Part shown: piece after piece, positions 23,871 to 64,000 of the stretch
Position numbering within the stretch: the stretch's first letter is position 1
How the letters are laid out: each line of letters starts with the position of its first letter
Program-made: the position numbers and the translations under genes
Virus record (IMG/VR): IMGVR_UViG_3300021091_000012
DNA: 64,000 nt
From: a virus
Reading direction: 5' to 3' (one strand)
The notes under the pieces: model-generated
Told to the model about the DNA's origin: nothing
The model's database searches: none
Seen by the model: only the letters and a program-made list of their open reading frames with translations

Positions 23871-25175
23871 TTAACAAAGTTTCATTTCTGAGTAATTTGA
23901 TCCCTTCTTTAACTTTACTGGGAATTTATCCAGGTCTATGTTTTGCGGAATTACCTCTTGCAATAGATAATCTAACTCATTAGACGGTACATCAAATAAT
24001 ATACTATCGTATGTGTATAATATTGGGACAGCTTTTTTTGTTTGTAAACAATCCAAGATAGGTTGTAGCGTAATCACATTAAATTCAGTTTCATACATCT
24101 GCAAAAAATAATTGAAAAGAGTGTATAAACTTATATCTTGATAGTTTGCTATCATAAGTTTTCTACCTGATATGGGGCTTTCAACGTATCCATACTGCGT
24201 AGCATAAGACCATAGCTGCTCTGCTAAATCTTTTGCTGCTTTGAAAAAAGGCACATGCAGATATTGCTTACTAATACCTCCATATATTTGTCTAAACGTA
24301 GATTCTTTTGCTTGTATGATTTGAGTTTTTGTAGGTGCTGGTGTGTTGTGGTAATGCTTTGCTAGATGTTCGTATACATCTTCCTTTCCAAAATCATAAC
24401 CCATTAAAGATGCAATAAGTCTAGGGTGGTAGGAGTTAAAATCTAATTCTACTAAACAACCATCATCAAATCTACTAACAAAGCAATCTCGTGAACCATC
24501 ATCCTTATTGAGAGCTGCAAAGTTGATTCCACCAAACCTATTACTAGGTCGGCCTGTAGTTGTGTAGTAATTATATTGTGTGTAGCTTTTGGTATTATTG
24601 ACCGAAAACGACTGACCAAAAGCTTTAGTAAAATAGTCTATGTTAATTTGCAATCCATTTTTTTCTATGTTGTAGAATAAGGAAAGAAGTTGGTTTTGAT
24701 AAAAATCCAGACCGGGCTGCTTGTCTGCTAGATAAATTCTCTGAAACAGCTCATAGGCAATATGCTCATGCTTAGGTAAACTGACTAACGATCCAAGAAC
24801 ACTACAATCTGATATATATCGAGCATAGTGGTTAAGTATTCCTGGTGTTTCAAAATTACACGGTTGATTAAGTTTCAAATAATACTGCAACTGAGCATCT
24901 ACAAAATTAGATGTATCATAACCTGCATACTTTAGTAATATGGTATCATAGCTGTATACGTTGCATTTATATAAAAAGTTAAAGTTATTAACTTTGAAAA
25001 CACCATCTGGATGTGTCCTGCTTATAGAATAAGTTTTGTGTGTATTAACATCGACCATAACTAACGCTACAACCTCACTCACTACTCGATGTCTACGACT
25101 ATCTTGCAATACTGGATAAACGAATAAAGTTTTTCCAGACAAAGACTCAAGTTGATGTATGTTATCTATAACCAT
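23871..25175 (-). CDS. second, degenerate family A polymerase-like protein (probable start 25175)
   Basis: IEKNGL, TTTGRPSN, motif A ELDFNSYHPR, motif B AKESTFRQIYGG, motif C YTYDSILFD; exonuclease motifs not recognisable. Confidence 0.8.
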   Translation of the reverse strand: MVIDNIHQLESLSGKTLFVYPVLQDSRRHRVVSEVVALVMVDVNTHKTYSISRTHPDGVFKVNNFNFLYKCNVYSYDTILLKYAGYDTSNFVDAQLQYYLKLNQPCNFETPGILNHYARYISDCSVLGSLVSLPKHEHIAYELFQRIYLADKQPGLDFYQNQLLSLFYNIEKNGLQINIDYFTKAFGQSFSVNNTKSYTQYNYYTTTGRPSNRFGGINFAALNKDDGSRDCFVSRFDDGCLVELDFNSYHPRLIASLMGYDFGKEDVYEHLAKHYHNTPAPTKTQIIQAKESTFRQIYGGISKQYLHVPFFKAAKDLAEQLWSYATQYGYVESPISGRKLMIANYQDISLYTLFNYFLQMYETEFNVITLQPILDCLQTKKAVPILYTYDSILFDVPSNELDYLLQEVIPQNIDLDKFPVKLKKGSNYSEMKLC

Positions 25176-25204
25176 ACATCTAATATACAAAATTTATTTA
25201 GATT

Positions 25205-47028: not shown

Positions 47029-48636
47029 TTAAACAAGACCCAAATTAGCTACGTATACTTTTCCGTAGAACTCAGGACGAGTAACAACTTTCGCATAGCG
47101 AGTCATTACACCACGTCTTGGAATGAAGTTCTTAGGATCGTACACAAGTGGAGTCAACATTAATGGAATGTATGGAGCATAAACAGCACCAGTTTCCAAG
47201 AATTGGCCACCTCTGAATCCCATCAAGATGGTGTTTTCTTGCATATAAGGGTTTTTGTACACTTCATAACGGCTAGTCAAAGCACCTACTTTTTGTACGC
47301 CCATTGCATACTTGGACTTAGTTCCGTCTCCATCTGCTGCATATCCTGGGATTGATTCGAGGATTGTAGAAACGTCTGGAGAACACACTAGGAAGTTTGC
47401 ACCACCACGAAGAGTTTTAGCGTGGATCTGGTTAGATACTTTTTGTAGTTTAGTACCTAAAGTTGCAAACCAAGTACCTTGGATATAAGCTTGACCAGTA
47501 AATTGAGATGTAGTGAATGAAGAACCTTCATACGCTTCACCTACTTTAGCTGACCAGTACTCAGTTGTAGCTGCTGCAGAGATAAGCATGTCTAGGATCT
47601 CTAAATCGATTTCCATTGATACATATTCTGACAACATAGCTGTCAATTCTCCTTCAGCATCTACTGAGTGGTATGCGTTAAGGTCTTGAGCAAACTCAGG
47701 TGTCCAGCTTGCTTTCAACTTACGAGTCTTAGCAGTTACTGGAATTGAACGCATTTGCAATTCAATTTCTGGAATATTCAAGTCTGTGTCTAATGAACGG
47801 TTGTTAGCATCTACTCCAGTTGATTCGAAGTCATTTCTGTTATTGTTTGTAGGTTGGATAGAGAACGATACTGCAGCTGTGCCGATACTTGGTCCGGCAG
47901 TCAATGCAGATGCGTTTACTACAAATACAAGGTTGTTTCCACTTTTACGTGTAAATGCAGGATAGAAGTCAGTAACTGCTAACGTAGTTGATCCAGATAC
48001 TGGAACAAAGGAACGTACTGCATACTCATCAGCTGTTGTGTTAGATGTAAAGAAGTTTGTATAGCTAAGGGTTCTGTAGCTAGACAATGATGCTGTAAAG
48101 TCACCATCAAAGTTCACGTCAGTGTCACCAACTGATCCAGTTGTTGCTGCGTTTGATGCTACTACAGTATTTACTGAGTAACCAAAACGACCAGCACCAT
48201 AAAGACCGTCTGTAGGATCTCCAGCTGCATTAGTAACACCTTGAAGAGTACCAGTTTGGTTTTGTCCAGTTGGAGCAAATCCAAAAGGCTTCTTATTGTT
48301 ACCATATTTAAAGTCTAAGTAGAATACTAGACCAGAAGGCAAGTTCATTGGCTGTACAGAAACGAATTCTTTAGCAGCGATTTCAGCGAATACTCTTCGT
48401 ACTAACGGAAGAGCTACACCAGTCCACTGCTCGAATCCTGATCCACCTATACCTGCAGTTGTTCCAGATCCTTCTTTTACTAATTGACGAGCTTGGTTTT
48501 CAAGGAGTACAGCCACAGCTGACTTCTCATTTTTACCTTTCAAGCCCTCAAGTAATCCCGTACGAGACCACTTAGAGATAAGAGGTTTTGTTGCTTCACC
48601 TCTGTTCTCGTTATGAATGTTTTCAAACAAGTTCAT
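47029..48636 (-). CDS. major capsid protein (T4 gp23-like)
   Basis: LLENQ, LPLVRR, VQPM..PSGL.F, AKTRKLKA.WT.E.AQDL, YAPYIPL, TRY. Confidence 0.96.
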   Translation of the reverse strand: MNLFENIHNENRGEATKPLISKWSRTGLLEGLKGKNEKSAVAVLLENQARQLVKEGSGTTAGIGGSGFEQWTGVALPLVRRVFAEIAAKEFVSVQPMNLPSGLVFYLDFKYGNNKKPFGFAPTGQNQTGTLQGVTNAAGDPTDGLYGAGRFGYSVNTVVASNAATTGSVGDTDVNFDGDFTASLSSYRTLSYTNFFTSNTTADEYAVRSFVPVSGSTTLAVTDFYPAFTRKSGNNLVFVVNASALTAGPSIGTAAVSFSIQPTNNNRNDFESTGVDANNRSLDTDLNIPEIELQMRSIPVTAKTRKLKASWTPEFAQDLNAYHSVDAEGELTAMLSEYVSMEIDLEILDMLISAAATTEYWSAKVGEAYEGSSFTTSQFTGQAYIQGTWFATLGTKLQKVSNQIHAKTLRGGANFLVCSPDVSTILESIPGYAADGDGTKSKYAMGVQKVGALTSRYEVYKNPYMQENTILMGFRGGQFLETGAVYAPYIPLMLTPLVYDPKNFIPRRGVMTRYAKVVTRPEFYGKVYVANLGLV

Positions 48637-48656: not shown

Positions 48657-49739
48657 TTATTTATTAAAGTTTACTAACGTTTTGAAACGATCGTAGATTT
48701 TGTTTTCTTGAAGAATTTTAGTAGGCTTTTGAGCTTTAGATGCAAAACCTTCTACCATTTTCTTTTTAGAAACTGGAGTAGATTTCATAGCCTTTTTAGC
48801 TACCGATTCAGCAAGTGTAGTGTATATCAATTTAGCTTCACGTACATTTTTAGCACGATCAAAAGTTTCAATGATTTTCACTTTTTGACCTTCAGTAAGA
48901 CCTTCACGCTTGATTAATTTATTTACATAAAGTAATTTAGCATTTAATAGGTTTACTTCGTTCAATTTACTACGTAAGAATCTGATTACTTTATAAGCTT
49001 CTTCCAATTCTTCCTCAGCTTTTTCAGCTCTTTCTGAATCTTCACTACCTTCTTCATCTTCTTCACGCAATGCACGGATGATTTCTTCTAGGTCAACTTC
49101 CTCGTCTTCGCCTTCCTCATCATCTTCCATCATCTTCATTTTCTTTTTCTTACCTTCAGATTTAGGGGCTTCGTCGTCATCGTCGTCGTCTTCGTCGTCT
49201 TCCTCTTCCATCATCTTCATTTTCTTTTTCTTACCTTCAGATTTAGGGGCTTCTTCATACTCTTCGTCCTCACCTTCTTCAAGTGATTCTTCTTCGTCTG
49301 AACCTTCTTCCTCTTCACCCTCAAGTTCGCGGATCAACTCTTCTAACTCTTCGTCAGAAATGTCACCCTCTTCTTCAGCAGGCGCTTCTTCTTCAGCAGG
49401 TGCTTCTTCTTCAGCAGGTGCTTCTTCTTCGTCACCTTCTTCAGCTAGAGCCTCTGGATCTTCACCAGCATCGTTTGATGCACCTTCACCTTCCTCATCT
49501 CCAAAGATATCATCTTCTTCATAGATTCCAGCGTTTGAGCGCATTCTTGATTCCATAGCTGCTTCATCTTCTGCAGGTGCTTCTTCTTCGTCACCTTCCA
49601 TCTCTTCTTTAATTTTGTGAGATAGCATGGATTGTAGTTTGGGAGCAAATGCTTCTTCAAGTGCAGCTTTTGCGTTTGCTAATGCAGTCTCACGAACAGC
49701 TTTAGCATCTGCGATTGCGTCTTTTAACAATTTGTTCAT
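48657..49739 (-). CDS. prohead core/scaffold protein
   Basis: Very acidic; A..NAK.ALEEAF.P N-terminus, LNEVNLLNAKLLY; immediately upstream of the capsid gene. Confidence 0.8.
   Translation of the reverse strand: MNKLLKDAIADAKAVRETALANAKAALEEAFAPKLQSMLSHKIKEEMEGDEEEAPAEDEAAMESRMRSNAGIYEEDDIFGDEEGEGASNDAGEDPEALAEEGDEEEAPAEEEAPAEEEAPAEEEGDISDEELEELIRELEGEEEEGSDEEESLEEGEDEEYEEAPKSEGKKKKMKMMEEEDDEDDDDDDEAPKSEGKKKKMKMMEDDEEGEDEEVDLEEIIRALREEDEEGSEDSERAEKAEEELEEAYKVIRFLRSKLNEVNLLNAKLLYVNKLIKREGLTEGQKVKIIETFDRAKNVREAKLIYTTLAESVAKKAMKSTPVSKKKMVEGFASKAQKPTKILQENKIYDRFKTLVNFNK
49123..49253 (-). repeat. 50-bp perfect direct repeat (81-nt period) in scaffold gene
   Basis: 49123-49172 equals 49204-49253, encoding EAPKSEGKKKKMKMME twice. 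Confidence 0.9.
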
Positions 49740-51309: not shown

Positions 51310-51927
51310 TTACATTACTGAGATTATATCACTGATTAGTGAGTTAATTTTTGAATACTTGTTTGATTTTTCTTGGTTTGTACCTTCGTTTAATGATGGA
51401 GACATAAATGCTCCTTGAGTTGATGGATTACTTACTAAGTCCCAGCATACGATTTCGAAGTCATCTTGAACTTCCACCTTACCCTCTCCTAGGTTTTTTA
51501 CCGATCCCATTCCTCGAGATGAAATGCCTAAACGAATTCCTGCTCGTAGCAACTCTTTTGCAATGTTTCCTGATGGTGTTGCTAGAATTTCAATTTTACC
51601 CATTAAATCGGTTCCTTGCCACCACAGATCTAATACGTTGTGCGAAACATTGGCAAGATTAACTACTTGTGATTCTGGATGATCTAATTCTCCTAAAGCT
51701 CTTCGCTCTTTAATAAAAACGTTTTTATATTTTTCGCATTCACGCTTTAGTATGGGTAATGGATAGCTTCTACCATTTTGATTGAAGTTCTGCTCGCTGC
51801 CATTACTACCACGCTGCATAACACCTACTACAACGACCTTACCTTCATTTTTGGCCATTGACTCCGTGATTTGTTCCGGAGTTATTTGGATAGATCCAAT
51901 ATAGTCTACTAATACTGCTTTATTCAT
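51310..51927 (-). CDS. prohead protease (T4 gp21-like)
   Basis: NQNGR.YP, ALGELDHP, VSH, TPSG, GISSRGMGS, WDLVSNPS. Confidence 0.95.
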   Translation of the reverse strand: MNKAVLVDYIGSIQITPEQITESMAKNEGKVVVVGVMQRGSNGSEQNFNQNGRSYPLPILKRECEKYKNVFIKERRALGELDHPESQVVNLANVSHNVLDLWWQGTDLMGKIEILATPSGNIAKELLRAGIRLGISSRGMGSVKNLGEGKVEVQDDFEIVCWDLVSNPSTQGAFMSPSLNEGTNQEKSNKYSKINSLISDIISVM

Positions 51928-52667
51928 GGTTTAAATTCTTTGGCTATAGTTTGAATTAACTCTTGTTCTTGATTCATGGTTCCAAGTCTAATCTCCTCAT
52001 CGTAGGCTTGATAGAGCACCTCACCATTGCGATAATCTACAGCGTATGGTTCGCCTTCAATCATAATGTCAAATTCATACCAATCGACTCCAAGCTGATT
52101 ATGATCAATGTCCATTGATTTAATGGGTATTCCAGCTTTAGTAAAAACTTGTGCCAATCTATCTTTGACTACGTTGGCTGCTAGTTCTTTTAGGTTTGCT
52201 AGCTGTCCTACTTTTTTGTTAACTTCAGATAGCTTTGATTTCATTTTAAGAATCGCTTCTGTTGTCTTTTTCCAATACTTTGAATTATCTACAGCTGACT
52301 CTTGTTTTAATTTTATGCTGTGGTCTAGTGCTTGTGAGATTTCTCTTAACATTTTATTCACCTCTAATACTCTTCGATTAATTTTTTGCACTTGAGTATT
52401 AGTGCTGTCTTCTTTGAAGGTTTTGTAGTTTAATTCGTACAATTTAATACTGTGCTTTTTCTCAGAAGATGGTTTGATAGAAAATGAGTATTGATCATCT
52501 TTTACATCGATTGCCTTTGTTCCATCTCCACCCTCTTCTCCAGTCCAAGCTGCTGCAGTCAAAAATCCTGGAATATTGGCTGTTGTACTACCCTCTTTGC
52601 GTAATTTCTTAATATAAGAACGAACCTCGTCTATCTCCTCTCTTGTAAGTTTTTTTTTACTTGACAT
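51924..52667 (-). CDS. hypothetical head-region protein
   Basis: Several xxE linkers (LRKE, LYE, LKE). Confidence 0.6.
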   Translation of the reverse strand: MSSKKKLTREEIDEVRSYIKKLRKEGSTTANIPGFLTAAAWTGEEGGDGTKAIDVKDDQYSFSIKPSSEKKHSIKLYELNYKTFKEDSTNTQVQKINRRVLEVNKMLREISQALDHSIKLKQESAVDNSKYWKKTTEAILKMKSKLSEVNKKVGQLANLKELAANVVKDRLAQVFTKAGIPIKSMDIDHNQLGVDWYEFDIMIEGEPYAVDYRNGEVLYQAYDEEIRLGTMNQEQELIQTIAKEFKP

Positions 52668-53511
52668 TTTTAAGTTCTTTTAGGAGTTCGTGATACAATA
52701 ACAAACATAAAACATTTTCTTCTTTTACTGTTTTAACCTTAGAAAAAGAGGAAAGCATATTGCTAACTTCGTTAAGTTTGATTTTTGTTACTTTGTCTGT
52801 AATAGTTGGGATGTATTTTTTAATACTAGCCTTTAGTAGGTCTGCTTCTTTGATTAAGAAGTTTTTTAAAGACACCGTATTAGACACATTGTTAATGTAT
52901 TCTTTGAGTATTGCTCTTTGTTTTAACGATAAGCCTGCATATTTTTCATTGAACTTGTCAATCATCAACTTATAAGCTAGTAACCTTACTTCCTCATCTT
53001 GCTTAATGTAATCTTCTGCAAAAGAGCTACTCTCGTTAAGTATCTTACTCCTTTTCTTGGTAAGATGTTCTAACAAAGTAAAGCGGCTTCTCACCACATC
53101 TGCAGCTTTTGTGATTATTGCACCCTCAAATATCCGATAAATAGATGCATACAGCTTGTATTCGTTTAAATTGGTTTTGAAGAAATCTGAGAGATTGTAA
53201 TGCTTTTTAATCTCCTTGATTAGTATGTATTTCGATTCGCCTAATGCTTTTGTGTTAAGTTTATTTCTCAGCTTAACTACTGTATTAATTAAATAATTTG
53301 CTTTGTCTTGTGATGAATATTTTTCACTCAACAGTGTTTGATAAAGCATCAACTCTTTTGTGAGTAATGTATTAGGTTTAAAATGTTCTCGAATCAGTGT
53401 AAGAGCGGGAGACTTGTCTACACCCTTTATAGTGTCGGCTGCTACTTGTCTTGTTAGTAGTTCAAACAAAATAGCGGTATTTTTAATCTTAGAGTGTGTT
53501 GACTTTTTCAT
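52657..53511 (-). CDS. hypothetical head-assembly protein
   Basis: HSKIKNT.ILFELL.RQ; lies between portal and protease. Confidence 0.65.
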   Translation of the reverse strand: MKKSTHSKIKNTAILFELLTRQVAADTIKGVDKSPALTLIREHFKPNTLLTKELMLYQTLLSEKYSSQDKANYLINTVVKLRNKLNTKALGESKYILIKEIKKHYNLSDFFKTNLNEYKLYASIYRIFEGAIITKAADVVRSRFTLLEHLTKKRSKILNESSSFAEDYIKQDEEVRLLAYKLMIDKFNEKYAGLSLKQRAILKEYINNVSNTVSLKNFLIKEADLLKASIKKYIPTITDKVTKIKLNEVSNMLSSFSKVKTVKEENVLCLLLYHELLKELKNVK

Positions 53512-53536: not shown

Positions 53537-55405
53537 TTATTCCTCTTGTAATAGATTGTCTTCGCTTAACAAATCCGGATCTTTTGCAGCATTTTCGTTT
53601 TTAAGATCGTAGGTTTCTTTCAATGCTTGCCCTTTACCTCCCATATACTTTTCCAGAGAGCTGAGCAACGTGCGATTAGATTCTATTCGTTTTTCTTGTT
53701 CATAAACCTTTCGGATACTTTTGTTACCTAGAGGATCCCATCCTAGCGGATGTTTGTGTGTTGCATATGATCCAGGTTCTTCGGGACGTCCAGCACCTGG
53801 CCATCCGCCTTCAGGCATCTTTTCATCGTATCCTTTTGGAACTCCTCCATTACCTTTGTATAACGATGCCAAGTCGTGTGGCGTTCCAAATGACTGACCA
53901 GTTTTAGATGGATCGTTTCCTTCTGTCTTAATTTGTTCTATTCTAAACTGTTCTTTAGTATCTCGCACAATTCTATCTTGTTCTTCCATCCACTGCTGCT
54001 CGCTCAAATTGAATAAATTTTCATACACCCAATACCTACTGAATAGTTTCTTCTCCACCATATCGCCAGCTAAAGTTACTTTAGATGTCCATAGTTCTAT
54101 TTTTTCTTTTTCGTAGATAGATGACGGAGCTGTTAGGTTAAGGGTAAAGTCAACTAGGTCCTCGTCTTGAAAGCCCTGAGCGTATAAATGCACCAAAGCA
54201 ATTTTATATAATTCAGATACTACAATCTTTTGTACTCTTTCGATTGTTCTGGCAAATCTAAAATCTTGAGAAGCTAAAGTAGCTTTTCCGGTCGTATCTT
54301 CCTCATAACCTAAGTATGCTTTGGGAATTTTTAGAGATCCTAACAATCTATTTTTTAGGTAGTCAATATCCGCAATAGAGTCATACTGAATGCCTGCAAG
54401 TGATTCGATTGCAGTACCGCTTTCTGCACCACGAACTGGAAGGTAAAAATCTTCTAGTAAGTTTTGCATATTATACTTTAGGTTGTACTCTCCAGATTCC
54501 GGATCTACATACGGTACTTTTTGCATTTTACTAGTCATTGACTCCATAAATGCGTCAACTTCGGCTGGAGGGATGTTGCCTATATCAATCTTAAATATAC
54601 GCTTATCTGGTGCACGCATAATACGATGGATCAACATTGCATCTTCCATTAAAGTTATCTGCTTCCATACCTTTCTTGATGGTTCAATTATAGATCGACC
54701 ATAAGGTAAAAAATTAGTATCAGTGAGCAGCCTAAAATGTGCAATCTCATAATTATCAAACTCTTCACTGTTTTTAGCTGAAGAGACTGAATATGCTGAA
54801 GAAAGTGCTGTAAAGTCGCGTTTGAACTTTATTTCATTTGGATCTTCTGGATTCATTCCTTCTTCTCGAATCATCTCATATGCTGAAATTGGTTCTACTC
54901 CAATTACACCATACTGCTCAGCTATATTTAGCTTTAAAAAGAAATCACCATATTTTACAGTGTTACGGATCCATGGCCACAAATTAAATTCAATGTTTAG
55001 GATGTCATAGAATAAGTTGTGTAATACTCTTTGTACTTTTTCATTTGAAGATTGTACCGTTAATACATCTCCAAACTCATTTTTAGCTGTACATTCGTCA
55101 GCGTATATATCAAGAGCAGATGCAATGATGCTATCTGTGTCCATTGATTCATAGTCACGGAACAGCTCTAGTCGAGTGTAGAGTTGCAGTTGACCGGCAT
55201 GCATTGACATGCTACCCGGCATTGTTGAATGTAATCTGGAGTATCGGTCAACTCTTCTGTTAGTTTTTAAGTTGCCGTCTGATTGTATTTTATTTGTGTC
55301 GATAACCTTAAGCTGGTTACCTCCTACATTTCGAATAATTACATCAGTACTAAATAGACGTCTTAGTCTGCCAAATATTGACTGTGATTGTTGATTTTCA
55401 GCCAT
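53537..55405 (-). CDS. portal protein (T4 gp20-like)
   Basis: ALDIYADE, KYGDFF, MEDAMLIHRI.RAP.KR.F.ID.GN, EDF.LP.RG, L.IPK. Confidence 0.95.
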   Translation of the reverse strand: MAENQQSQSIFGRLRRLFSTDVIIRNVGGNQLKVIDTNKIQSDGNLKTNRRVDRYSRLHSTMPGSMSMHAGQLQLYTRLELFRDYESMDTDSIIASALDIYADECTAKNEFGDVLTVQSSNEKVQRVLHNLFYDILNIEFNLWPWIRNTVKYGDFFLKLNIAEQYGVIGVEPISAYEMIREEGMNPEDPNEIKFKRDFTALSSAYSVSSAKNSEEFDNYEIAHFRLLTDTNFLPYGRSIIEPSRKVWKQITLMEDAMLIHRIMRAPDKRIFKIDIGNIPPAEVDAFMESMTSKMQKVPYVDPESGEYNLKYNMQNLLEDFYLPVRGAESGTAIESLAGIQYDSIADIDYLKNRLLGSLKIPKAYLGYEEDTTGKATLASQDFRFARTIERVQKIVVSELYKIALVHLYAQGFQDEDLVDFTLNLTAPSSIYEKEKIELWTSKVTLAGDMVEKKLFSRYWVYENLFNLSEQQWMEEQDRIVRDTKEQFRIEQIKTEGNDPSKTGQSFGTPHDLASLYKGNGGVPKGYDEKMPEGGWPGAGRPEEPGSYATHKHPLGWDPLGNKSIRKVYEQEKRIESNRTLLSSLEKYMGGKGQALKETYDLKNENAAKDPDLLSEDNLLQEE

Positions 55406-55429: not shown

Positions 55430-57019
55430 TCATAACAACCAGTTAATGTCCTCATCATTGCCTTGTGCAGTTCTTACTTTGTAGCTACGATTACCAAAAG
55501 TAGGCTTGTATATTGATACTGTAGATTTTATGTTGTTTACTGCCATTCGGTTTAGCTCAATTCCTGCCTGCTTTAATCTTAAAGCCGTGTCTCGAACCCA
55601 CAATCCTTGGCAGAAACTCATAACCAAGTCATCATTGTAGCCGGAGGCAGCTTCTGGTCTACCGGCTTTGTATATAAATACAAATAATTCGTCTAATAAA
55701 CGCTTACTTCTTATTATACAACTATTCTCTCGAATATACAACTCCATCTTAGATATTGTCAAAGGTCTTACTTTATGTGAGTTGGTGAAACCAGCAACCA
55801 TATCTTTTTTGTCTGTTAGATCATATCCCTTTATAAGAAACTTATCTGAATCTAATCCACTATCTTTTGGTGTATAATATAGGTTTTTATATCCACGTTC
55901 TATGATCTGTTGTAGTGTTGCCCAACCTACGTTCGCATTTTCAACTACTAGCAAAGCGTCGTTGTACTCCGTTCCAACAGCAACTAGCATATTACCAAAG
56001 TCTTTGGTCGATATCTGACCTTTGTATTCGGCAACTTGAGTGCATGATTCTATATCAATCACATGGAATGCAGAGTAATCCGATCCATCACCTCTTGCAA
56101 CGTCAGCTGCTACCAAATAGCTTCTAGTGTAGTCAGGAACCTCCCACACCCATAAATTACCATCAAATCCTCTTTTTTCAATAGGCTCTTTTGCAAAGGT
56201 ATTCGTGTAGTGAGTTATTAAGTCTGGAGAAACGACTGTATTTCCAGAAGTACTAAAATCACAGTCACACTCCTGTGCTGCTAATCTTGCTCCTAACTCT
56301 GCCTCTTGCCTATCTCGCCATGCTTGATCTCTTTCCGGATGGACGGTCCATGGTAGTCTTAATGTTTTAAATTTGTTATCTCCAGCCTCAGCTTTTGCCC
56401 ACATTTTGTGAAAAAAGTTACCAGTTCCATTTGGAGTTGATAGTAATACACCTTGACCACCCGTTGATAGCGTTTGCTGTAGTGAAGCCCAGAGCTCCTC
56501 TGCACCATCAACGAAAGCTGCCTCATCTATGATCACAAGCGATAACGCTTCAGATCGACCCGACGTTCCAGTACTAGATACGGCTTTGATTTGTGATCCA
56601 TTTGACAACCTCATTGAGAGTTTGTTACTCTCAACCGCCTTCAACTTTAACCAGCTAGGTAAGTTGTCGAACATTACTCGCACCTTTGTTACGAGGTTTT
56701 TAGATGTATTTTGGTCAATTGCAACTACAAGTACGTTTTTGTCATTTTGAAATAAAATCATCCAAAGTGCATAACCGGCAATCAGTGTTGAAATACCAAG
56801 CTGCCTAGACTTTAATATAATTGTTCTATCATTTTCTTGAAAGTCTTGTAATGCTCCTTCCTGATACGGATATAGGTGGAATAGAATTTTACCTCGAGTG
56901 GGGTGCTGGATCACACAATACTTTTTCATAAAGTAAGATGCAGAGCGAGCACACTTTATGTACTCCTCTTTGATTATCTCCTTTAGCGTTTTTTGTTGAT
57001 CCGACATATTATTTGACAA
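55430..57019 (-). CDS. large terminase subunit (gp17-like)
   Basis: KSRQLGIS, IIDEAAF, STPNG, ADVARG...D.S, DDLVM. Confidence 0.95.
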   Translation of the reverse strand: MSNNMSDQQKTLKEIIKEEYIKCARSASYFMKKYCVIQHPTRGKILFHLYPYQEGALQDFQENDRTIILKSRQLGISTLIAGYALWMILFQNDKNVLVVAIDQNTSKNLVTKVRVMFDNLPSWLKLKAVESNKLSMRLSNGSQIKAVSSTGTSGRSEALSLVIIDEAAFVDGAEELWASLQQTLSTGGQGVLLSTPNGTGNFFHKMWAKAEAGDNKFKTLRLPWTVHPERDQAWRDRQEAELGARLAAQECDCDFSTSGNTVVSPDLITHYTNTFAKEPIEKRGFDGNLWVWEVPDYTRSYLVAADVARGDGSDYSAFHVIDIESCTQVAEYKGQISTKDFGNMLVAVGTEYNDALLVVENANVGWATLQQIIERGYKNLYYTPKDSGLDSDKFLIKGYDLTDKKDMVAGFTNSHKVRPLTISKMELYIRENSCIIRSKRLLDELFVFIYKAGRPEAASGYNDDLVMSFCQGLWVRDTALRLKQAGIELNRMAVNNIKSTVSIYKPTFGNRSYKVRTAQGNDEDINWLL

Positions 57020-58168: not shown

Positions 58169-58545
58169 TAGTTGACTGTATTATTTCGGATTCCTTTTAA
58201 TAGATTCAATCTCTCTTCACTTGTAGTAGTAAAACGCTCTACTATTTGTGATATTATATCAACCAAGTCATCTGTACTTGGTGTTCCAGTGGATTGAGTC
58301 AACTTGCGGATAAACATATCTGTTGCCGCTTGAAAGTCCGGATTCAGACCCTCTTCCTCTTCGGGAGCTGGCTCTGGTTGTGCTGGTTTCTGTTTTGGTT
58401 CTTCTTTTGGTGGTTCTGGTGTTGCAGCGGTATTAGGCGTAGCTGCGTCCACAGCATCCTCTTCAGCTTCTTTGATCATCTTTCTTACAAGAATGCGAAC
58501 TGCTTCTCGCAATGCTCTTTCTTTAGTCAACTTAGTTTTCTTCAT
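58168..58545 (-). CDS. putative head-packaged protein
   Basis: LREAVR...MIKE|AEED, Pro/Glu linker. Confidence 0.55.
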   Translation of the reverse strand: MKKTKLTKERALREAVRILVRKMIKEAEEDAVDAATPNTAATPEPPKEEPKQKPAQPEPAPEEEEGLNPDFQAATDMFIRKLTQSTGTPSTDDLVDIISQIVERFTTTSEERLNLLKGIRNNTVN

Positions 58546-58922
58546 TATTTTAAAAATCTTAGTTTATATATTGTTGAGTTAATTAACTCGTTGATTGTAT
58601 CTAATTGATTTTGGATATACGTATCCTTGACAGTAGAGTGTACTTCTTCAACTTTCTTGCCTAACGCCTTCAAATAAGTAACAACTTGATCTCCACTTTT
58701 GTATGTCTGAAGTCCTGGACACTCATAAGATGATATAATGTCGTATTTTCCTTGGTATGCTTCTACTAGTTTATCAATTAAATCTACAATATTATTGTAA
58801 TACACGCTATAAGCTATATGCTCTGCATACGACCTTGTTTGTAGGTGAAATACATGCACTTGAGTTCTTGAGTGCAGTAAATATGATATTAATTTTTCTA
58901 AATTCTTATTCATTGTTGTCAA
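58545..58922 (-). CDS. ferritin/Dps-like four-helix protein (DUF5856-like)
   Basis: H.FHLQT.SYAEH...YY......D.LVEAYQG.Y; QN..D.I..L..ST.YKL. Confidence 0.75.
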   Translation of the reverse strand: MTTMNKNLEKLISYLLHSRTQVHVFHLQTRSYAEHIAYSVYYNNIVDLIDKLVEAYQGKYDIISSYECPGLQTYKSGDQVVTYLKALGKKVEEVHSTVKDTYIQNQLDTINELINSTIYKLRFLK

Positions 58923-60436: not shown

Positions 60437-61039
60437 TTATGGCGTTGGTACTAATACACCACCAATAGTAGCTGCATTTCTGGACAGCTCTGTTAATTGG
60501 TCTTCGTTTAGTTTAAGTTTCTTTTTTGTAAAGTCAATACCTATTACACCTACCAATTTGTCGTCCATAGTTTTAATTGCAAAAAAGTAGCTAGACTTAC
60601 AATTATACTCATCGGCAATATACTTTAATCCGTAGGTTGCTATAGATTCGTCTTTATAGTCTGATATTAATATTTCATCGTTTTCTAATAGAAAATTAAT
60701 AGGCTTGCTAAAAAGCGTTACTGGAATATTTTGGAAGCTATTCTGCATTGAGGTAGTTCCACTTGATACAGCTTCATATGTCATACTAAACTTAGCGATA
60801 CTTTTACCAGTTGGATAGAAATTACCGCCATTGTGAAATTGAATAAGCCACACTCGATCTGCATGAATTTGTTCTCGAATGTGATCAAGTTTAGCAGTTA
60901 CACGCTCGCTCACATGGAGTGTGTCTAACATCATATCTCCTTTTTTTCTTTTGTCTTGATAATCTTTCAGTATTAAGACTATAACTGGTCCAATAACACC
61001 AGTGATAAATGCTACTAAAATAGGTACTGTCATGCTCAT
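60437..61039 (-). CDS. N-terminal TM plus GAF-like domain, candidate T4 holin-T-like protein
   Basis: TM ILVAFITGVIGPVIVLIL; ADRVWLIQFHNGG...KFS..YE; LVGVIGIDF. Confidence 0.5.
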   Translation of the reverse strand: MSMTVPILVAFITGVIGPVIVLILKDYQDKRKKGDMMLDTLHVSERVTAKLDHIREQIHADRVWLIQFHNGGNFYPTGKSIAKFSMTYEAVSSGTTSMQNSFQNIPVTLFSKPINFLLENDEILISDYKDESIATYGLKYIADEYNCKSSYFFAIKTMDDKLVGVIGIDFTKKKLKLNEDQLTELSRNAATIGGVLVPTP

Positions 61040-61539
61040 CTCTTGCTCTTATAGTCTTCGACTTTAGTTTTTAATTGATTAAGTTCATCGTCTACAACAG
61101 ATTGGATAAAATCTCTACCAGCGTCCTTCCACCGCTCTACCATCCCTTTTTCAGTAACATGCGATTGTGTCACAGATTCGTCAACATACTCTTTTAATGC
61201 TGACTCCACATCTTTTACAAATGCATTTGCGTTTGCTGTAATTTTAGTTGTTTCGTATTCTTTCCACTTTCCTGCCTTTATGATCTCGTGTTCCATGTCG
61301 ATTACACACTGAAAGCAGGTTTTGTGAATTGTCCACATTTTTGCATCTAAGTGATGTTTCATAGCGTTTCCACATCTTGGACAGCATAGTGGTGTTAGCA
61401 TGTCCTTACGTGCTTCGTCCATCTTAGTAAAAGTACGTTTAATGCCATTTTTAATTGTCCAAGTTTTTCCTGACTCTGACCATACATCACCCTCTTTGTA
61501 GGTTTTTTTAAAATTTCCCGTTGTAACAAATAAACTCAT
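61036..61539 (-). CDS. zinc-finger-containing hypothetical protein
   Basis: EGDVW.E.GKTWTIKNGIK; CPRC...CFQC. Confidence 0.65.
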   Translation of the reverse strand: MSLFVTTGNFKKTYKEGDVWSESGKTWTIKNGIKRTFTKMDEARKDMLTPLCCPRCGNAMKHHLDAKMWTIHKTCFQCVIDMEHEIIKAGKWKEYETTKITANANAFVKDVESALKEYVDESVTQSHVTEKGMVERWKDAGRDFIQSVVDDELNQLKTKVEDYKSKR

Positions 61540-61865
61540 CTTGATTGTAACTTATATTTTTGTAAAATTAATTCTACGTGTTTGTCAAATTTACGTATTG
61601 CTCTACGTAATTCTAGTCGTGCTGCTTCTGAAATCTTATCACTCTCGTCACTATCAGCAACACCTCTATAGTATTCCTTTCCTCCAGTAGACGATACACT
61701 GATTTTAAAACTGAACTCAGGACTACCTCCCTCCCCAACTTCTACAAAGTCAGAATCATAGTGTAGTGTCATGTTTGTATGTTCAGAAGTCGCAATGGCT
61801 TCTTTCTTTTCGAGAAGTGCTTGCTTGATTGCAGCCTCTTGTAGTTGTTTGTATAAATCTTTCAT
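61536..61865 (-). CDS. putative head-packaged protein
   Basis: MKDLYKQLQE...LLE. Confidence 0.5.
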   Translation of the reverse strand: MKDLYKQLQEAAIKQALLEKKEAIATSEHTNMTLHYDSDFVEVGEGGSPEFSFKISVSSTGGKEYYRGVADSDESDKISEAARLELRRAIRKFDKHVELILQKYKLQSR

Positions 61866-64000
61866 CGTTGAAATTTTAGATATCCAATGATCTGGTTGAT
61901 TGGAGCGAATGCGCCAGTTAGTTTATATATTTTTTTGTTGTACTTAAACACGACTCCTTCCAAAGGAACAATAGCCTTAAAGCCTCCTAAGTCTTGTAAT
62001 CGTTGTAATTCTCGTTTAAGAAACTTCAAACCCTTATCGTCGTCTTGCATTTCTGGTGATGCCGCTGCTGCATGAATACCCTTTATAGTGTATGCTAATT
62101 CGTCACGCATCTTCTGCACAGTATCATTAGGGTTTATTGATACTAGTTGTTGAATGTTTTGTAGAACGTACACTCCTAGTTTAAGGAACAAGTTTTCTAA
62201 TGGTCGCTTTGCTTCTTTTTGTTGAGCCGCGACACCATTCTTATCGAAGTAATCTACCCATCTTAAAAACTCTGCGTTTTTAATCATTCCGCGAATGTTC
62301 TTGATATTAACCTCTTTGTTTCCAAATCCCCAACGATTAATTAACTGTTGTAGTGTGTTATCATCTATAGCATATCCAAGCTCTTTAGCTTTTTGCTCGA
62401 TATAATTTTTCCACCAAGCTTGGAAGTACATAGATGTCTTATCACCCTCTTTGAGATTGTAAGTCTTACGGATAGTCTCTAATTGCTTAAGCAACTCTTC
62501 TTTTTGTTTTTTGTAATCCTTTGTCTTAGATAGTGTAATAGGATCTGTATGGCGAATTTGAAAAGTTTTTTGATCCGAGGCTTGAACCTTATCAATAGCA
62601 GCCTGAAGCTGTACCGCTCCTTTTGAATCCTCATCCGCTACATTACCATCCTGATCATATTCTTTAAATCCGTGGAGTCTTAGTTGTGTTGCTCCGTAAG
62701 GTACTACGTTTGTAGTTCCAGGAAACAGTACTTCAAAGTTTATGAATCGTTTTCCGTTTTGAAAGAATTGTTCTTTTTGTGTTGGATCCAACTTGTTAAT
62801 TGCTGACTCCATATCTCGCATAGCCTCAACAAACGCAGTTTGAACTGCCCCCTTTCCTACCATCATCTGATCTAACTGATCAGCAGTGATTGAGTTTTCG
62901 GCATAGTTTTTGAGTTGTCCTTTGTTGCGAGCTGCTCTTACTTTGCCATCCTTGTAAGTGACCATTAGATTTTGGCCATCCAACTTCTCTTGAGCAAACT
63001 CCACTTTACCACTCAAAGCCGCGTCAATCATATTACGCGCGTCGACAAATGTAAGATCCAAGTCTTCGTATGGATGAGCCATGTGTCCTGCTGCTCCTCC
63101 TTCTTTAAGGAGCTTTTTGCTTTCGGCTAAGAATGCGGATGGTATCATATGTTTTTTTAAAGCAGGTATGTTTGCTAATAGCATATAAACTACACCTCCT
63201 GGTAAAACTGCTGCTGCTGTATATCCTGTTAATTTTAAAACGTCTTTCATTTGATCTCCGATCTGTTGACGCTCTTGCACGGTTAAGCGTTTACCTGACT
63301 TAACAGAATCAACTAACTTTGCAAACGCTTGTTTAGTTTCTCGATTTTCTTGTTTTAGTTTATCTAAAAAAGCTCCAAATTTGTTTTTTAATTTTTCAAA
63401 CTGATTGCGTAGTACGTTTGGTACCTCTAATTCATCTAATGTAGATCGGGAACGGTTCTCGGCTACTTTTTTTTTTGATAAAATATCAAAAATAGACTTA
63501 ACAGTGTTGTCACTCACTCCTGGATAGTTTGTTTTGAAGTTTTCGTAGTTGTTTGCAGCTAAGTCGGCTCTCAAAACACTAGCGCTTATTCCTTGACCAT
63601 TTAAGTTATCCTTACGACCTTTGTATAATATAGGAGATACATTAATTGGTAGTTCTACAACACCAACTTCAGGTCTGTGATATTTTCCTGTTTCTGGAGC
63701 ATGACCTGCTACAAACATCTTAACCCTATCGTAATCCTTACCTTTTGAGCTAGATCCTAATGTATAAGTTCCAGGCTCTGCTGTTTCAATATACTCGTAA
63801 GCAGCTCGCATTGGATTGTCGTTTGGTGCTTGTTCCACTTTAATGTTTGATACACCTCCAAGTAACAACTTCCAAATCTCCATGGATTGTTGCATTGTTA
63901 TGCCATCGCGTTCCTTTGGTCCAATTAATATACGAACCTCGGATACATTAGGTTGTGATGCATATCGCTTTGCTAGTTCAATGTGACCTATATGTGGTGG
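61862..64000 (-). CDS. multidomain protein: HIGH-family nucleotidyltransferase + helical domain + ATP-dependent ligase-like domain; 5'-truncated by window edge
   Basis: Frame is open from 64000: PPHIGHIELAK...; GISASVLR; later EKLDGQN, NFEVL, EGVVFK, YKLTG. Confidence 0.8.
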   Translation of the reverse strand, partial: PPHIGHIELAKRYASQPNVSEVRILIGPKERDGITMQQSMEIWKLLLGGVSNIKVEQAPNDNPMRAAYEYIETAEPGTYTLGSSSKGKDYDRVKMFVAGHAPETGKYHRPEVGVVELPINVSPILYKGRKDNLNGQGISASVLRADLAANNYENFKTNYPGVSDNTVKSIFDILSKKKVAENRSRSTLDELEVPNVLRNQFEKLKNKFGAFLDKLKQENRETKQAFAKLVDSVKSGKRLTVQERQQIGDQMKDVLKLTGYTAAAVLPGGVVYMLLANIPALKKHMIPSAFLAESKKLLKEGGAAGHMAHPYEDLDLTFVDARNMIDAALSGKVEFAQEKLDGQNLMVTYKDGKVRAARNKGQLKNYAENSITADQLDQMMVGKGAVQTAFVEAMRDMESAINKLDPTQKEQFFQNGKRFINFEVLFPGTTNVVPYGATQLRLHGFKEYDQDGNVADEDSKGAVQLQAAIDKVQASDQKTFQIRHTDPITLSKTKDYKKQKEELLKQLETIRKTYNLKEGDKTSMYFQAWWKNYIEQKAKELGYAIDDNTLQQLINRWGFGNKEVNIKNIRGMIKNAEFLRWVDYFDKNGVAAQQKEAKRPLENLFLKLGVYVLQNIQQLVSINPNDTVQKMRDELAYTIKGIHAAAASPEMQDDDKGLKFLKRELQRLQDLGGFKAIVPLEGVVFKYNKKIYKLTGAFAPINQIIGYLKFQR

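What the first reader, a model, noticed from the sequence alone, without database searches (positions are those of the whole stretch)
61862..64000. Putative virion polyprotein: HIGH nucleotidyltransferase + helical domain + ligase-like domain joined by prohead-protease-type linkers
Seen: the ORF extends in frame past the track start to the window edge, revealing PPHIGH, with ISASVLR downstream (the HxGH and ISxxxxR motifs of the NMNAT/PPAT family). The C-terminal domain has ligase/capping-enzyme motifs KLDG, FE, EGVV and K. Domain borders carry VAE/LDE and LAE/LLKE|GG. Known: T4 gp21 cleaves after Glu in [IL]-x-E. Inference: a packaged precursor is matured into separate enzymes injected with the DNA, possibly an NAD/cofactor-restoring adenylyltransferase plus an RNA-repair or AMPylating enzyme acting as counter-defence.
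Basis: partly seen in the sequence, partly recalled or inferred. Interest (0 to 1): 0.8.

Follow-up and report, generated by a model that had tools for sequence, protein, structure and literature searches.

The report
Phage adenylyltransferase plus RNA-ligase-like fusion
A marine T4-like phage has a late gene, just upstream of its DNA-packaging genes, that joins a PPAT/NMNAT-type nucleotidyltransferase to an unnamed RNA-ligase-shaped enzyme; both enzymes are real and evidently work as a pair, but their loading into the capsid and cutting by the head protease is unproven.

Summary
The minus-strand ORF 61862-64000 is the last 712 residues of a 741-aa protein (P0002).

- **N-terminal domain:** residues 19-211 fold as a HIGH-motif nucleotidyltransferase. 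The best match is PPAT (Z 15.0).
- **C-terminal domain:** residues 330-741 fold as a covalent lysine nucleotidyltransferase. All 13 best structural matches are ligases, 11 of them RNA ligases (Z 9.2-6.9). Motifs I, III, IV and V are near-invariant.
- **Unusual features:** a ~180-aa helical insert lies before motif IV, there is no OB domain, and an LLxEGGxxGH motif opens the domain. No Pfam or PHROG family covers it.
- **Middle segment:** an optional LETM1-like hairpin, present in 0, 1 or 2 copies among relatives.

The family is large and seems phage-restricted. It lies upstream of TerL in 15 of 19 TerL-selected contigs. The two enzymes occur fused in both orders or as neighbouring genes, so they work together.

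Capsid packaging and cleavage is only circumstantial:
- **For:** an S77 prohead protease, a late-promoter-like TATTTATA, and [LIVM]xE sites clustered in flexible segments.
- **Against:** the residue before GG is Cys or Met in 13% of members, and some subfamilies lack the leader.

NAD salvage is disfavoured, because a 98%-complete relative has no NadV. This scan noted the same family earlier on other DNA.

The parts
61862..64000 (-). ORF for residues 30-741 of the 741-aa fusion protein. The stop codon is 61862-61864; the first 29 codons lie beyond the window edge.
63473..64000 (-). HIGH-motif nucleotidyltransferase domain with a PPAT/NMNAT fold (residues 30-205 here; the fold spans 19-211).
   Evidence: PDB profile hit to PPAT, E 3e-5. 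VIA: PPAT Z 15.0, rmsd 2.7 A over 157 aa; NMNAT Z 12.7-13.6.
63983..64000 (-). PPHIGH, the (H/T)xGH ATP-binding signature.
63569..63589 (-). ISASVLR, the second ATP-binding signature (ISxxxxR).
63425..63472 (-). Disordered linker 1 (residues 206-221) carrying VAE and LDE.
   Evidence: pLDDT below 50. A [LIV]xE recurs here in most relatives.
63155..63424 (-). Optional helical insert (residues 222-311), weakly LETM1-like, with a hydrophobic hairpin at 63158-63232.
   Evidence: Present in 0, 1 or 2 copies in close relatives. NCBIfam LETM1_rel_film E 0.004. Atlas Letm1-RBD clusters score 0.80-0.81.
63101..63154 (-). Disordered linker 2 (residues 312-329) carrying LAE and LKE.
   Evidence: pLDDT below 50
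63083..63112 (-). LLKEGGAAGH, the family-wide N-terminal motif of the ligase-like module.
   Evidence: In 254 proteins, -3 is L/I in 98% and -1 is E in 87% (C or M in 13%). GGxxGH is near-invariant.
61865..63100 (-). RNA-ligase-fold covalent nucleotidyltransferase module (residues 330-741) with no OB domain.
   Evidence: Model pLDDT 92.8. All 13 best VIA matches are ligases: NgrRnl Z 9.2, Trl1 8.7, REL1 8.5, T4 Rnl1 8.5. Nearly all Foldseek matches are ligases too, most of them RNA ligases.
62969..62989 (-). Motif I, EKLDGQN; the predicted nucleotidyl-lysine K368 is at 62984-62986.
   Evidence: Near-invariant. An intein is inserted exactly after this Lys in relative P0145.
62723..62746 (-). 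Motif III, FINFEVLF (E452).
   Evidence: Invariant Glu
61973..62515 (-). All-helical insertion of about 180 aa (residues 525-705) between motif IIIa and motif IV.
   Evidence: Secondary structure of both models. Only generic helical matches were found.
61943..61966 (-). Motif IV, PLEGVVFK (E710, G711).
   Evidence: Invariant
61913..61933 (-). Motif V, KIYKLTG (K722).
   Evidence: Invariant Lys
61036..61539 (-). Conserved downstream neighbour: a 167-aa protein with paired Cys motifs (CxxC ... CxxC).
   Evidence: A homologue follows the ligase gene in 69 of 80 related loci, at a median of 351 nt. No Pfam or PHROG family matches.
55430..57019 (-). Large terminase (context).
   Evidence: phrog_2, E 2e-47
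51310..51927 (-). T4 gp21-type prohead protease (context for the cleavage idea).
   Evidence: Peptidase_S77, E 1.7e-26, 93 bits against a cut-off of 27

Best explanation
This is a real, late-expressed gene of a 'Far-T4' type aquatic myovirus. It encodes a two-enzyme protein.

- **First enzyme.** A compact HIGH-motif nucleotidyltransferase with a PPAT/NMNAT fold. It should transfer an NMP from an NTP onto a phosphate-bearing acceptor.
- **Second enzyme.** A new, seemingly phage-restricted clade of the ligase/capping superfamily. It has an RNA-ligase fold and no OB domain. It should form a Lys368-NMP adduct and pass the nucleotide to a 5'-phosphate end so that a break is sealed.
- **Joint.** A dispensable hydrophobic hairpin, LETM1-like, sits between the two enzymes in some members.

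The two enzymes act in one pathway on nucleic-acid ends. Repair or sealing of RNA, probably tRNA, is the leading candidate. That step is inferred, not shown. The protein is made together with the virion proteins. It may be loaded into the head and trimmed by the prohead protease, but this is not required by the evidence.
For: **Folds and motifs.**
- N-domain: PPAT Z 15.0 and PPAT profile E 3e-5.
- C-domain: all 13 best VIA matches are ligases, 11 of them RNA ligases, at Z 9.2-6.9; Foldseek gives mostly RNA ligases, with probability up to 0.99.
- Motifs I, III, IV and V are near-invariant over sequences as low as 30% identical.
- An intein sits exactly in motif I of P0145, which is typical of essential active sites.

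**Coupling of the two enzymes.**
- 11 of 14 long relatives scanned carry CTP_transf_like together with the ligase module.
- The order is reversed (ligase, then nucleotidyltransferase) in L085, L089-L092, P0223 and P0255.
- The two are separate nearby genes in L082 (adjacent) and L087 (two genes between).

**RNA theme.**
- The nearest folds are RNA ligases.
- Relatives add a PolyA_pol/CCA-adding head domain plus an RNA-binding domain (P0180), or a Zeta/AAA_33 P-loop kinase (P0159, P0207).

**Late expression.**
- TATTTATA occurs 13 times on the coding strand and 2 times on the other. Ten of the 13 lie within 60 nt upstream of a start codon, many of them in the tail and structural region.
- TATTTAT lies 12-27 nt upstream of this gene in 16 of 17 relatives.

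**Phage restriction and near-core status.**
- Only 12 loci turned up in 185,579 species genomes. All are metagenome-assembled contigs, and three also carry the TerL-portal head genes.
- The gene lies upstream of TerL in 15 of 19 contigs that were picked by TerL similarity and had at least 7 kb of upstream sequence.
Against: - No substrate is shown for either domain.
- A 98%-complete relative (G001, 165.6 kb; its ortholog is 55% identical) has no recognisable Pnk-type kinase, 2H phosphoesterase, KptA or CCA-adding enzyme. A T4-style heal-and-seal pathway is therefore incomplete there.
- That genome also has no ATP- or NAD-dependent DNA ligase. The module could therefore act on DNA instead of RNA.
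- Structural Z scores of 8-9 show a shared fold, not a shared substrate.
- Pfam RNA_ligase and CTP_transf_like are both below threshold for this protein.
- The role of a HIGH nucleotidyltransferase in RNA repair has no precedent known to me.
Confidence: 0.55

Rival explanations
1. The protein is a head-internal cargo. An N-terminal 10-aa leader targets it to the prohead core. The S77 protease cuts after Glu in [LIVM]xE at the leader and at both linkers. The freed nucleotidyltransferase, hairpin and ligase are then injected with the DNA as a ready-made counter-defence kit.
For: - An S77 protease is present.
- The promoter motif is shared with structural genes, and the position at the head module is conserved.
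- MNTLANYLVE has a hydrophobic residue at positions 4 and 7, Leu at 8 and Glu at 10. In the T4 CTS MKTYQEFIAE these are the targeting positions (4, 7) and the processing positions (8, 10) (PMC8442874, PMC9026906).
- The leader helix lies outside the PPAT fold and has pLDDT 63.
- Six of ten [LIVM]xE sites lie in the 51 flexible residues.
- Pooled over 38 relatives, observed against expected sites are 60/28 in the leader, 156/97 in the inter-domain region and 148/245 in the ligase domain.
- The ligase domain has the lowest observed/expected ratio (0.19) among window proteins with an appreciable expected count. The ORFs in the scaffold position are enriched: orf284 has a ratio of 2.18 and orf360 has 21 sites.
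- The MCP propeptide region has LVKE followed by GSG, resembling LLKE followed by GG.
- Some relatives are very long multidomain proteins, one with an ART domain. This recalls T4 Alt and the polyvalent proteins (PMC5512222).
Against: - There are no proteomic or cleavage data.
- The residue at -1 of GG is Cys or Met in 32 of 254 members, while Leu at -3 and GGxxGH are more conserved. This points to a catalytic or structural motif.
- The motif is also kept at the extreme N-terminus of stand-alone and ligase-first forms.
- Subfamilies in phages with the same protease start directly at beta-strand 1, without a leader, and their ligase domains are not depleted in sites.
- Glu at position 10 is Asp in some close relatives.
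- Leaders of the CTS type are not enriched among the window's 82 ORFs.
- The pooled counts come from related sequences and are not independent.
Confidence: 0.3
2. It is the phage's nick-sealing ligase for DNA or RNA-DNA hybrids, made late to repair concatemers before or during packaging. It would stand in for the missing gp30-type DNA ligase.
For: - A 98%-complete relative has neither an ATP- nor an NAD-dependent DNA ligase.
- The gene lies just upstream of the TerL-portal packaging and head genes, followed by a conserved Cys-motif neighbour.
- The best structural match, NgrRnl, is titled a nick-sealing ligase.
- From my own knowledge: T4 encapsidation needs DNA ligase (Zachary and Black, 1981).
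Against: - There is no OB or DNA-binding domain typical of DNA ligases.
- Several DNA ligases score lower (Z 5.3-5.8 for T4, T7, Chlorella virus and LigD; ASFV ligase 7.1, Pmar-Lig 7.5) than the best RNA ligases (8.4-9.2).
- Many T4-like marine phages do without a ligase (my own knowledge).
- This view gives no role to the HIGH nucleotidyltransferase.
Confidence: 0.12
3. The function is NAD-linked, in one of two ways. Either the N-domain is an NMN adenylyltransferase that restores NAD+ after depletion by host defence. Or the ligase-fold module takes its AMP from NAD+, and the fused NMNAT re-makes NAD+ from the released NMN.
For: - A sister subfamily carries the NadM/NMNAT signature GRFQPFHxGH and an ISGTxxR-type second motif. 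It hits NMNAT models at E 2e-8 (P0258; L082 and L085; Mel-JY01).
- NMNAT structures match the N-domain at Z 12.7-13.6.
- The tight fusion in both orders fits cofactor channelling.
- Glu, Cys or Met at -1 followed by GGxxGH could be a leaving-group site. This is inference only.
Against: - The window protein has GGFKPPHIGH, not the NMNAT signature. All NMNAT and PPAT equivalog scores are far below cut-off (19 bits or less, against cut-offs of 103-240).
- PPAT is the best fold match.
- No NadV/NAPRTase is found in the 98%-complete relative, whereas a survey found NadV in every NadM-bearing phage (PMC9503650).
- The module has no LigA-type domain Ia.
Confidence: 0.1
4. It has a morphogenetic role, like T4 gp63 (RNA ligase 1), which also promotes tail-fibre attachment. 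The enzyme fold would serve as an assembly factor.
For: - Timing appears late, and the position is beside the structural genes.
- T4 Rnl1 is among the best fold matches, at Z 8.5.
- The dual role of gp63 is from my own knowledge.
Against: - The catalytic motifs are near-invariant and an intein sits in motif I. Both argue for selection on catalysis.
- This view does not explain the constant pairing with a HIGH nucleotidyltransferase.
Confidence: 0.04

Closest known systems
ATP-dependent RNA ligases without a C-terminal OB domain: Naegleria NgrRnl (Rnl5), fungal Trl1 ligase domain, T. brucei REL1, T4 Rnl1 and Rnl2, archaeal Rnl3
   Same: The nucleotidyltransferase fold is shared (Z 9.2-6.9 over 187-214 aligned residues). 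So are motif I KxDG, motif III Glu, motif IV EG and motif V Lys. There is no OB domain.
   Different: - Identity is below 20%, and no Pfam, PHROG or PDB sequence match passes threshold.
- A helical domain of about 180 aa is inserted before motif IV rather than appended after motif V.
- There is a unique near-invariant LLx[E/C/M]GGxxGH segment 33 residues before the lysine.
- It is nearly always paired with a HIGH nucleotidyltransferase.
Phosphopantetheine adenylyltransferase (CoaD) and NMN adenylyltransferases (NadM, NadR, NadD)
   Same: The fold is a Rossmann-type HIGH nucleotidyltransferase (PPAT Z 15.0, rmsd 2.7 A over 157 of 161 residues; NMNAT Z 12.7-13.6). The HxGH and ISxxxxR motifs are present.
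   Different: - Equivalog models are far below cut-off.
- It has family-specific blocks (LIGPKxRDGIT, SSKGxDYxRV) and a 17-aa N-terminal helix.
- No NadV partner is found.
- The acceptor substrate is unknown.
T4 head-internal proteins (IPI-III, Alt) with a capsid-targeting sequence removed by gp21
   Same: The phage has a gp21-type protease. The first 10 residues copy the CTS layout. [LIVM]xE sites lie in flexible segments (PMC9026906, PMC8442874).
   Different: - There is no evidence of packaging.
- The leader is absent in some subfamilies.
- The internal 'site' before GG is not always Glu.
- T4 cargo proteins are not ligases or HIGH nucleotidyltransferases.
Polyvalent proteins of phages and conjugative elements (Iyer et al. 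2017, PMC5512222)
   Same: Relatives reach 1985 aa and combine the module with ART, Zeta-type kinase, PolyA_pol, a ROS/MucR zinc finger and an intein. A zincin HExxH gene sits directly upstream in L090 and L091.
   Different: That survey lists no ligase of this kind: its only mention of RNA ligases is that the 2H domains of polyvalent proteins never associate with them. Here the nucleotidyltransferase-ligase pair is a fixed couple rather than a free mix of domains.

Membership tests
HIGH-signature nucleotidyltransferase superfamily (Pfam CTP_transf_like, PF01467) | Rossmann-like fold of PPAT/NMNAT type | tested here: met
   VIA: PPAT Z 15.0, rmsd 2.7 A, 157 aa aligned, model residues 19-211. 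Foldseek TM up to 0.71 on the target.
HIGH-signature nucleotidyltransferase superfamily (Pfam CTP_transf_like, PF01467) | (H/T)xGH motif after strand 1, and an ISxxxxR motif near the C-terminus | tested here: met
   PPHIGH (residues 30-35) and ISASVLR (167-173). Both are conserved in the family alignment, with H or T at the first position.
HIGH-signature nucleotidyltransferase superfamily (Pfam CTP_transf_like, PF01467) | Score above the Pfam gathering threshold | tested here: not met
   12.8 bits against 21 for this protein. Relatives pass: P0253 at 32.6 bits and P0266 at 34.1 bits. The PDB profile hit to PPAT has E 3e-5.
NMN adenylyltransferase (NadM/NadR type) | GRFQPxHxGH signature and an equivalog-level score | tested here: not met
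   The window protein has GGFKPPHIGH. NCBIfam NMNAT models score 16 bits or less against cut-offs of 214-240. A sister subfamily does carry the signature.
NMN adenylyltransferase (NadM/NadR type) | Co-occurrence with NadV in phage NAD salvage (PMC9503650) | tested here: not met
   No PF04095 match in the 98%-complete relative G001. The window's own genome could not be searched.
Phosphopantetheine adenylyltransferase (CoaD) | Equivalog-level sequence score (TIGR01510) | tested here: not met
   19.2 bits against a cut-off of 103.3. Only the fold and the ATP motifs match.
Covalent nucleotidyltransferase superfamily (ATP-dependent ligases and capping enzymes) | Motif I KxDG with the nucleophilic lysine | tested here: met
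   EKLDGQN. K368, D370 and G371 are at least 90% conserved in 50 sequences and invariant in A3. An intein is inserted right after the Lys in P0145.
Covalent nucleotidyltransferase superfamily (ATP-dependent ligases and capping enzymes) | Motifs III (acidic), IV (EG) and V (Lys) in order on the nucleotidyltransferase fold | tested here: met
   E452, E710-G711 and K722 are invariant or near-invariant. The strands lie at the expected places in the model.
Covalent nucleotidyltransferase superfamily (ATP-dependent ligases and capping enzymes) | Structural similarity of the adenylyltransferase domain | tested here: met
   All 13 best of 48,161 chains are ligases (Z 9.2-6.9, 162-214 aa aligned), followed by unrelated helical matches. 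Foldseek probability is 0.8-0.99 for RNA ligases. Z of about 8-9 is moderate by the tool's own note.
Covalent nucleotidyltransferase superfamily (ATP-dependent ligases and capping enzymes) | Lysyl-NMP formation and strand joining | not testable with these tools
   Needs biochemistry.
Pfam RNA_ligase (PF09414) and the named Rnl1-Rnl5 families | Sequence membership above threshold | tested here: not met
   13.5 bits against 27, covering motif I only. No PDB sequence hit for the C-domain. No Pfam family in any of the 42 aligned members apart from the N-domain.
DNA ligases and capping enzymes | OB-fold domain with motif VI after motif V | tested here: not met
   The protein ends 19 residues after motif V, with a single helix.
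T4-type capsid-targeted cargo processed by the prohead protease | gp21-type protease encoded by the same phage | tested here: met
   Peptidase_S77, E 1.7e-26. It is also present in related contigs and in Mel-JY01.
T4-type capsid-targeted cargo processed by the prohead protease | N-terminal leader of about 10 aa ending in [LI]xE | tested here: inconclusive
   MNTLANYLVE fits the layout and lies outside the fold. However, it is absent in some subfamilies, Glu10 is Asp in some relatives, and such leaders are not enriched in the window.
T4-type capsid-targeted cargo processed by the prohead protease | Presence in virions and cleavage after Glu | not testable with these tools
   Needs virion proteomics. 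Motif statistics are suggestive only, and they are contradicted at the GG site.

The most novel reading that the evidence does not exclude
A widespread lineage of aquatic T4-like phages loads a nucleic-acid repair kit into its capsids. The kit is a HIGH nucleotidyltransferase plus a new class of RNA ligase. Loading uses a T4-like 10-residue leader. The S77 prohead protease cuts the kit apart at [LIVM]xE joints. The enzymes are injected with the genome, so that RNA (tRNA) breaks made by host defences are sealed from the first minute of infection.
Probability: 0.25. Interest if true: 0.8.

Novelty: new variant of a known kind. Interest (0 to 1): 0.6.

Why it matters
The ligase-fold module is a large, seemingly phage-only family with 694 cluster representatives at E<=1e-30. 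It has no Pfam or PHROG family and no characterised member, yet it is a near-core gene just upstream of the packaging genes in an abundant aquatic phage lineage.

It would add a new architectural class to the RNA/DNA ligase superfamily: an internal helical insert, a GGxxGH segment, and obligate pairing with a HIGH nucleotidyltransferase. The pairing itself poses a clear biochemical question, namely what a PPAT/NMNAT-type enzyme contributes to an end-joining reaction.

If the capsid-delivery reading holds, it would be the first repair ligase I know of that a phage carries in its head. A cultured carrier, Microcystis phage Mel-JY01, makes these questions testable.

Tried and rejected
**Searches that found nothing or were unavailable.**
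- Megablast of 61000-64000 against phage records found no match.
- PHROGs has no family for the protein.
- Pfam and NCBIfam gave only sub-threshold hits.
- The window's own genome is not held.

**Leads that did not hold up.**
- The Atlas suggested DUF6267. This was not reproduced by a Pfam scan of 42 members, and no paper mentions it.
- No paper on Mel-JY01 was found.
- Neither the polyvalent-protein survey nor the NAD-ADPr survey describes this fusion.
- CTS-type leaders (hydrophobic at position 4, [LIVM] at 8, Glu at 10) are not clearly enriched among the window's ORFs: five with [LIVM]-x-Glu ending at position 10, against about two expected.
- The protein as a whole is not enriched in [LIVM]xE (10 sites against 11.5 +/- 2.8 in shuffles). 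Only the distribution of the sites is unusual.
- No paralogue of the middle insert exists in the window.

**Partner enzymes sought in the 98%-complete relative G001 and in three partial relatives.** None of these was found: ATP- or NAD-dependent DNA ligase, NAPRTase, AAA_33 kinase, PolyA_pol, 2H phosphoesterase or KptA. These are Pfam-level absences in relatives, not in this genome.

**Helical insert.** The insert of the ligase module matched only generic helical bundles. It was not folded on its own.

Full report
**What is there.** The minus strand of 61862-64000 is one open frame that runs off the window edge. An identical 741-aa database protein, P0002, adds the missing 29 residues, starting MNTLANYLVE. 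The internal ATG at 63895 cannot be the start, because the upstream PGGFKPPHxGH block is conserved in all full-length homologues.

**The host phage.** The window belongs to a T4-like myovirus with all its genes on the minus strand.
- TerL lies at 55430-57019, portal at 53537-55405, MCP at 47029-48636 and sheath at 35206-37593.
- UvsX, DnaB, RNR and DNA polymerase are present, as are gp32, a GroEL-like chaperonin and FolE2.
- A T4 gp21-type prohead protease (Peptidase_S77, E 1.7e-26) lies at 51310-51927.
- The nearest cultured capsid relatives are Flavobacterium phage immuto and Microcystis phage Mel-JY01 (53% identity), then Rhodothermus phage RM378 (39%). T4-like coliphages are at 29%.

**N-terminal domain.**
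- A profile of the family hits PPAT structures at E 3e-5.
- The AlphaFold model of the whole protein has mean pLDDT 87.9.
- The model matches PPAT at Z 15.0 (rmsd 2.7 A, 157 of 161 residues, model residues 19-211). NMNAT and NadD match at Z 12.7-13.6.
- HxGH and ISxxxxR are conserved.
- It is therefore a HIGH-signature nucleotidyltransferase. It is not a CoaD or NMNAT equivalog, since those models score 19 bits or less against cut-offs of 103-240.
- Three signature variants occur in the family: GGFKPPHxGH (this protein), GGFKPITGAH (PPAT-like) and GRFQPFHxGH (NadM/NMNAT-like).
- Residues 1-17 form an extra helix outside the fold, with pLDDT about 63.

**C-terminal domain.**
- Modelled alone, it reaches pLDDT 92.8 and pTM 0.89.
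- Foldseek lists almost only ligases, most of them RNA ligases, with probability up to 0.99 and E from 1e-3.
- An exhaustive VIA search puts 13 ligases on top, 11 of them RNA ligases. They include NgrRnl (Z 9.2), Trl1 (8.7), REL1 (8.5), T4 Rnl1 (8.5), Rnl2 (7.6) and Rnl3 (7.7). Unrelated helical matches follow.
- K368, D370 and G371 (motif I), E452 (III), E710 and G711 (IV) and K722 (V) are invariant or near-invariant.
- An intein splits motif I right after the lysine in relative P0145.
- Three features set the module apart. About 180 helical residues (525-705) lie between motif IIIa and motif IV. There is no OB domain. A near-invariant LLx[E/C/M]GGxxGH segment is predicted to be disordered.
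- No Pfam, PHROG or PDB sequence match covers the module.

**Middle segment.** Residues 222-311 are helical with a hydrophobic hairpin. Close relatives carry 0, 1 or 2 copies (625, 741 and 850 aa). Two weak leads point to the LETM1 ribosome-binding region: NCBIfam at E 0.004 and the Atlas at a score of 0.81. I treat it as an optional module of unknown role.

**Distribution and context.**
- The family has 2661 cluster representatives at E<=1e-3 and at least 567 viral contigs.
- Only three records in the phage collection carry the ligase module. Lak megaphages carry the N-domain alone.
- Across 185,579 species genomes only 12 loci appeared. All are metagenome-assembled contigs, and three also carry the TerL-portal head genes. 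That scan used only two peptide patterns, so distant relatives may have been missed.
- In about 70 of 80 related loci, the gene lies 1-4 kb upstream of TerL, portal and the S77 protease, on the same strand.
- Among contigs chosen by TerL similarity alone, 15 of 19 with at least 7 kb of upstream sequence carry it.
- A conserved 167-aa neighbour with paired Cys motifs follows it in 69 loci.

**Coupling of the two enzymes.** The ligase module is found with CTP_transf_like in 11 of 14 long relatives scanned. The order is reversed in L085, L089-L092, P0223 and P0255. The two are separate nearby genes in L082 and L087. Other partners include PolyA_pol with an RNA-binding domain, a Zeta/AAA_33 kinase, an ART domain and a ROS/MucR zinc finger. 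This is the main reason to read the pair as one pathway, and to lean towards work on RNA ends.

**Timing.** TATTTATA occurs 13 times on the coding strand and 2 times on the other. Ten of the 13 lie within 60 nt upstream of a start codon, including the sheath gene and genes just downstream of the MCP gene. TATTTAT lies 12-27 nt upstream of this gene in 16 of 17 relatives, including the 94%-identical L002. That it is a late promoter is inferred from its position and from analogy with T4.

**Packaging and cleavage: points in favour.**
- The protease is present.
- The leader matches the T4 CTS layout. Positions 4 and 7 serve targeting and positions 8 and 10 serve processing (PMC9026906). The T4 sequence is MKTYQEFIAE (PMC8442874).
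- Six of ten [LIVM]xE sites fall in the 51 flexible residues.
- Pooled over 38 relatives, the leader has 60 sites against 28 expected and the inter-domain region has 156 against 97. The ligase domain has 148 against 245.
- The ligase domain has the lowest ratio (0.19, P 0.013 uncorrected) among the window proteins with an appreciable expected count. The ORFs in the scaffold position are enriched.
- The MCP propeptide region carries LVKE followed by GSG.

**Packaging and cleavage: points against.**
- The position before GG is Cys or Met in 32 of 254 proteins. Leu/Ile at -3 is 98% conserved.
- The motif sits at the very N-terminus of stand-alone forms. It is therefore probably part of the enzyme.
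- Some subfamilies lack the leader or show no depletion of sites.
- The sequences counted are related to each other, so the pooled numbers are not independent.
- I put this reading at about 0.3.

**Partner enzymes.** A 98%-complete relative (165.6 kb; its ortholog is 55% identical) shows no DNA ligase, NadV, Pnk-type kinase, 2H phosphoesterase, KptA or CCA-adding enzyme. This weakens the NAD-salvage reading, because a survey found NadV in every NadM-bearing phage (PMC9503650). It also weakens a full T4-style heal-and-seal pathway, and it keeps a DNA nick-sealing role open.

**Verdict.** The polyprotein-cargo model is a reasonable but unproven hypothesis. The thing itself is a new architectural variant of the ligase superfamily, bound to a HIGH nucleotidyltransferase. 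Earlier notes of this scan describe the same family in other genomes and reach similar conclusions.

Noticed in passing
window 61036-61539 (-): A 167-aa protein with paired Cys motifs (CCPRC ... CFQC) follows the ligase gene in 69 of 80 related loci. It usually lies about 0.85 kb upstream of TerL. It has no Pfam or PHROG family. It may be a partner of the ligase or a packaging factor.
   Followed up: partly
window, coding (-) strand: 46970, 46231, 42123, 37950, 37627, 34634, 33490, 28134, 23861, 18716: TATTTATA is strongly strand-biased (13 against 2). Ten copies lie within 60 nt upstream of start codons, many of them in the tail and structural region. It is a candidate late promoter, differing from T4's TATAAATA.
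   Followed up: partly
window 61536-61865 (-): The 109-aa ORF just downstream starts MKDLYKQLQE followed by A. This is the only window ORF that fits the strict 10-residue CTS layout. It could be an internal-protein candidate.
   Followed up: partly
window 52657-53511 and 48657-49739 (-): The ORFs in the scaffold position are rich in [LIVM]xE: orf284 has 14 sites against 6.4 expected, and the very acidic orf360 has 21. This is as expected for core proteins degraded by a gp21-type protease.
   Followed up: partly
window 9438-10439 and 11883-12659 (-): A type I GTP cyclohydrolase FolE2 (E 5e-70) lies next to a weak radical-SAM hit (below the Pfam cut-off). Together they hint at a 7-deazaguanine-type nucleobase modification pathway.
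   Followed up: no
window 1634-3277 (-): A phage-encoded GroEL-like chaperonin (Cpn60_TCP1, E 2e-73).
   Followed up: no
window 58545-58922 (-): A 125-aa protein matches phrog_858 (described as a starvation-inducible transcriptional regulator; E 2e-26), inside the small-gene block between the ligase gene and TerL. A 168-aa ORF rich in EExxH-type motifs sits between the split nucleotidyltransferase and ligase genes of L087; its family was not tested.
   Followed up: no
L090 7225-7977 and L091 7054-7971: A gene with a zincin-type HELIHH motif lies directly upstream of the reversed-order ligase-nucleotidyltransferase fusion in two distant relatives. This recalls the peptidases proposed to process polyvalent proteins.
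   Followed up: no
P0145 residues ~738-878: An intein (Cys ... HisAsn, then Thr) is inserted exactly after the motif I lysine of the ligase module.
   Followed up: yes
window 23871-25190 and 4830-7070 (-): Two separate ORFs both match the DNA polymerase family phrog_17 over overlapping profile positions. This suggests a second polymerase-like gene rather than a split gene.
   Followed up: no
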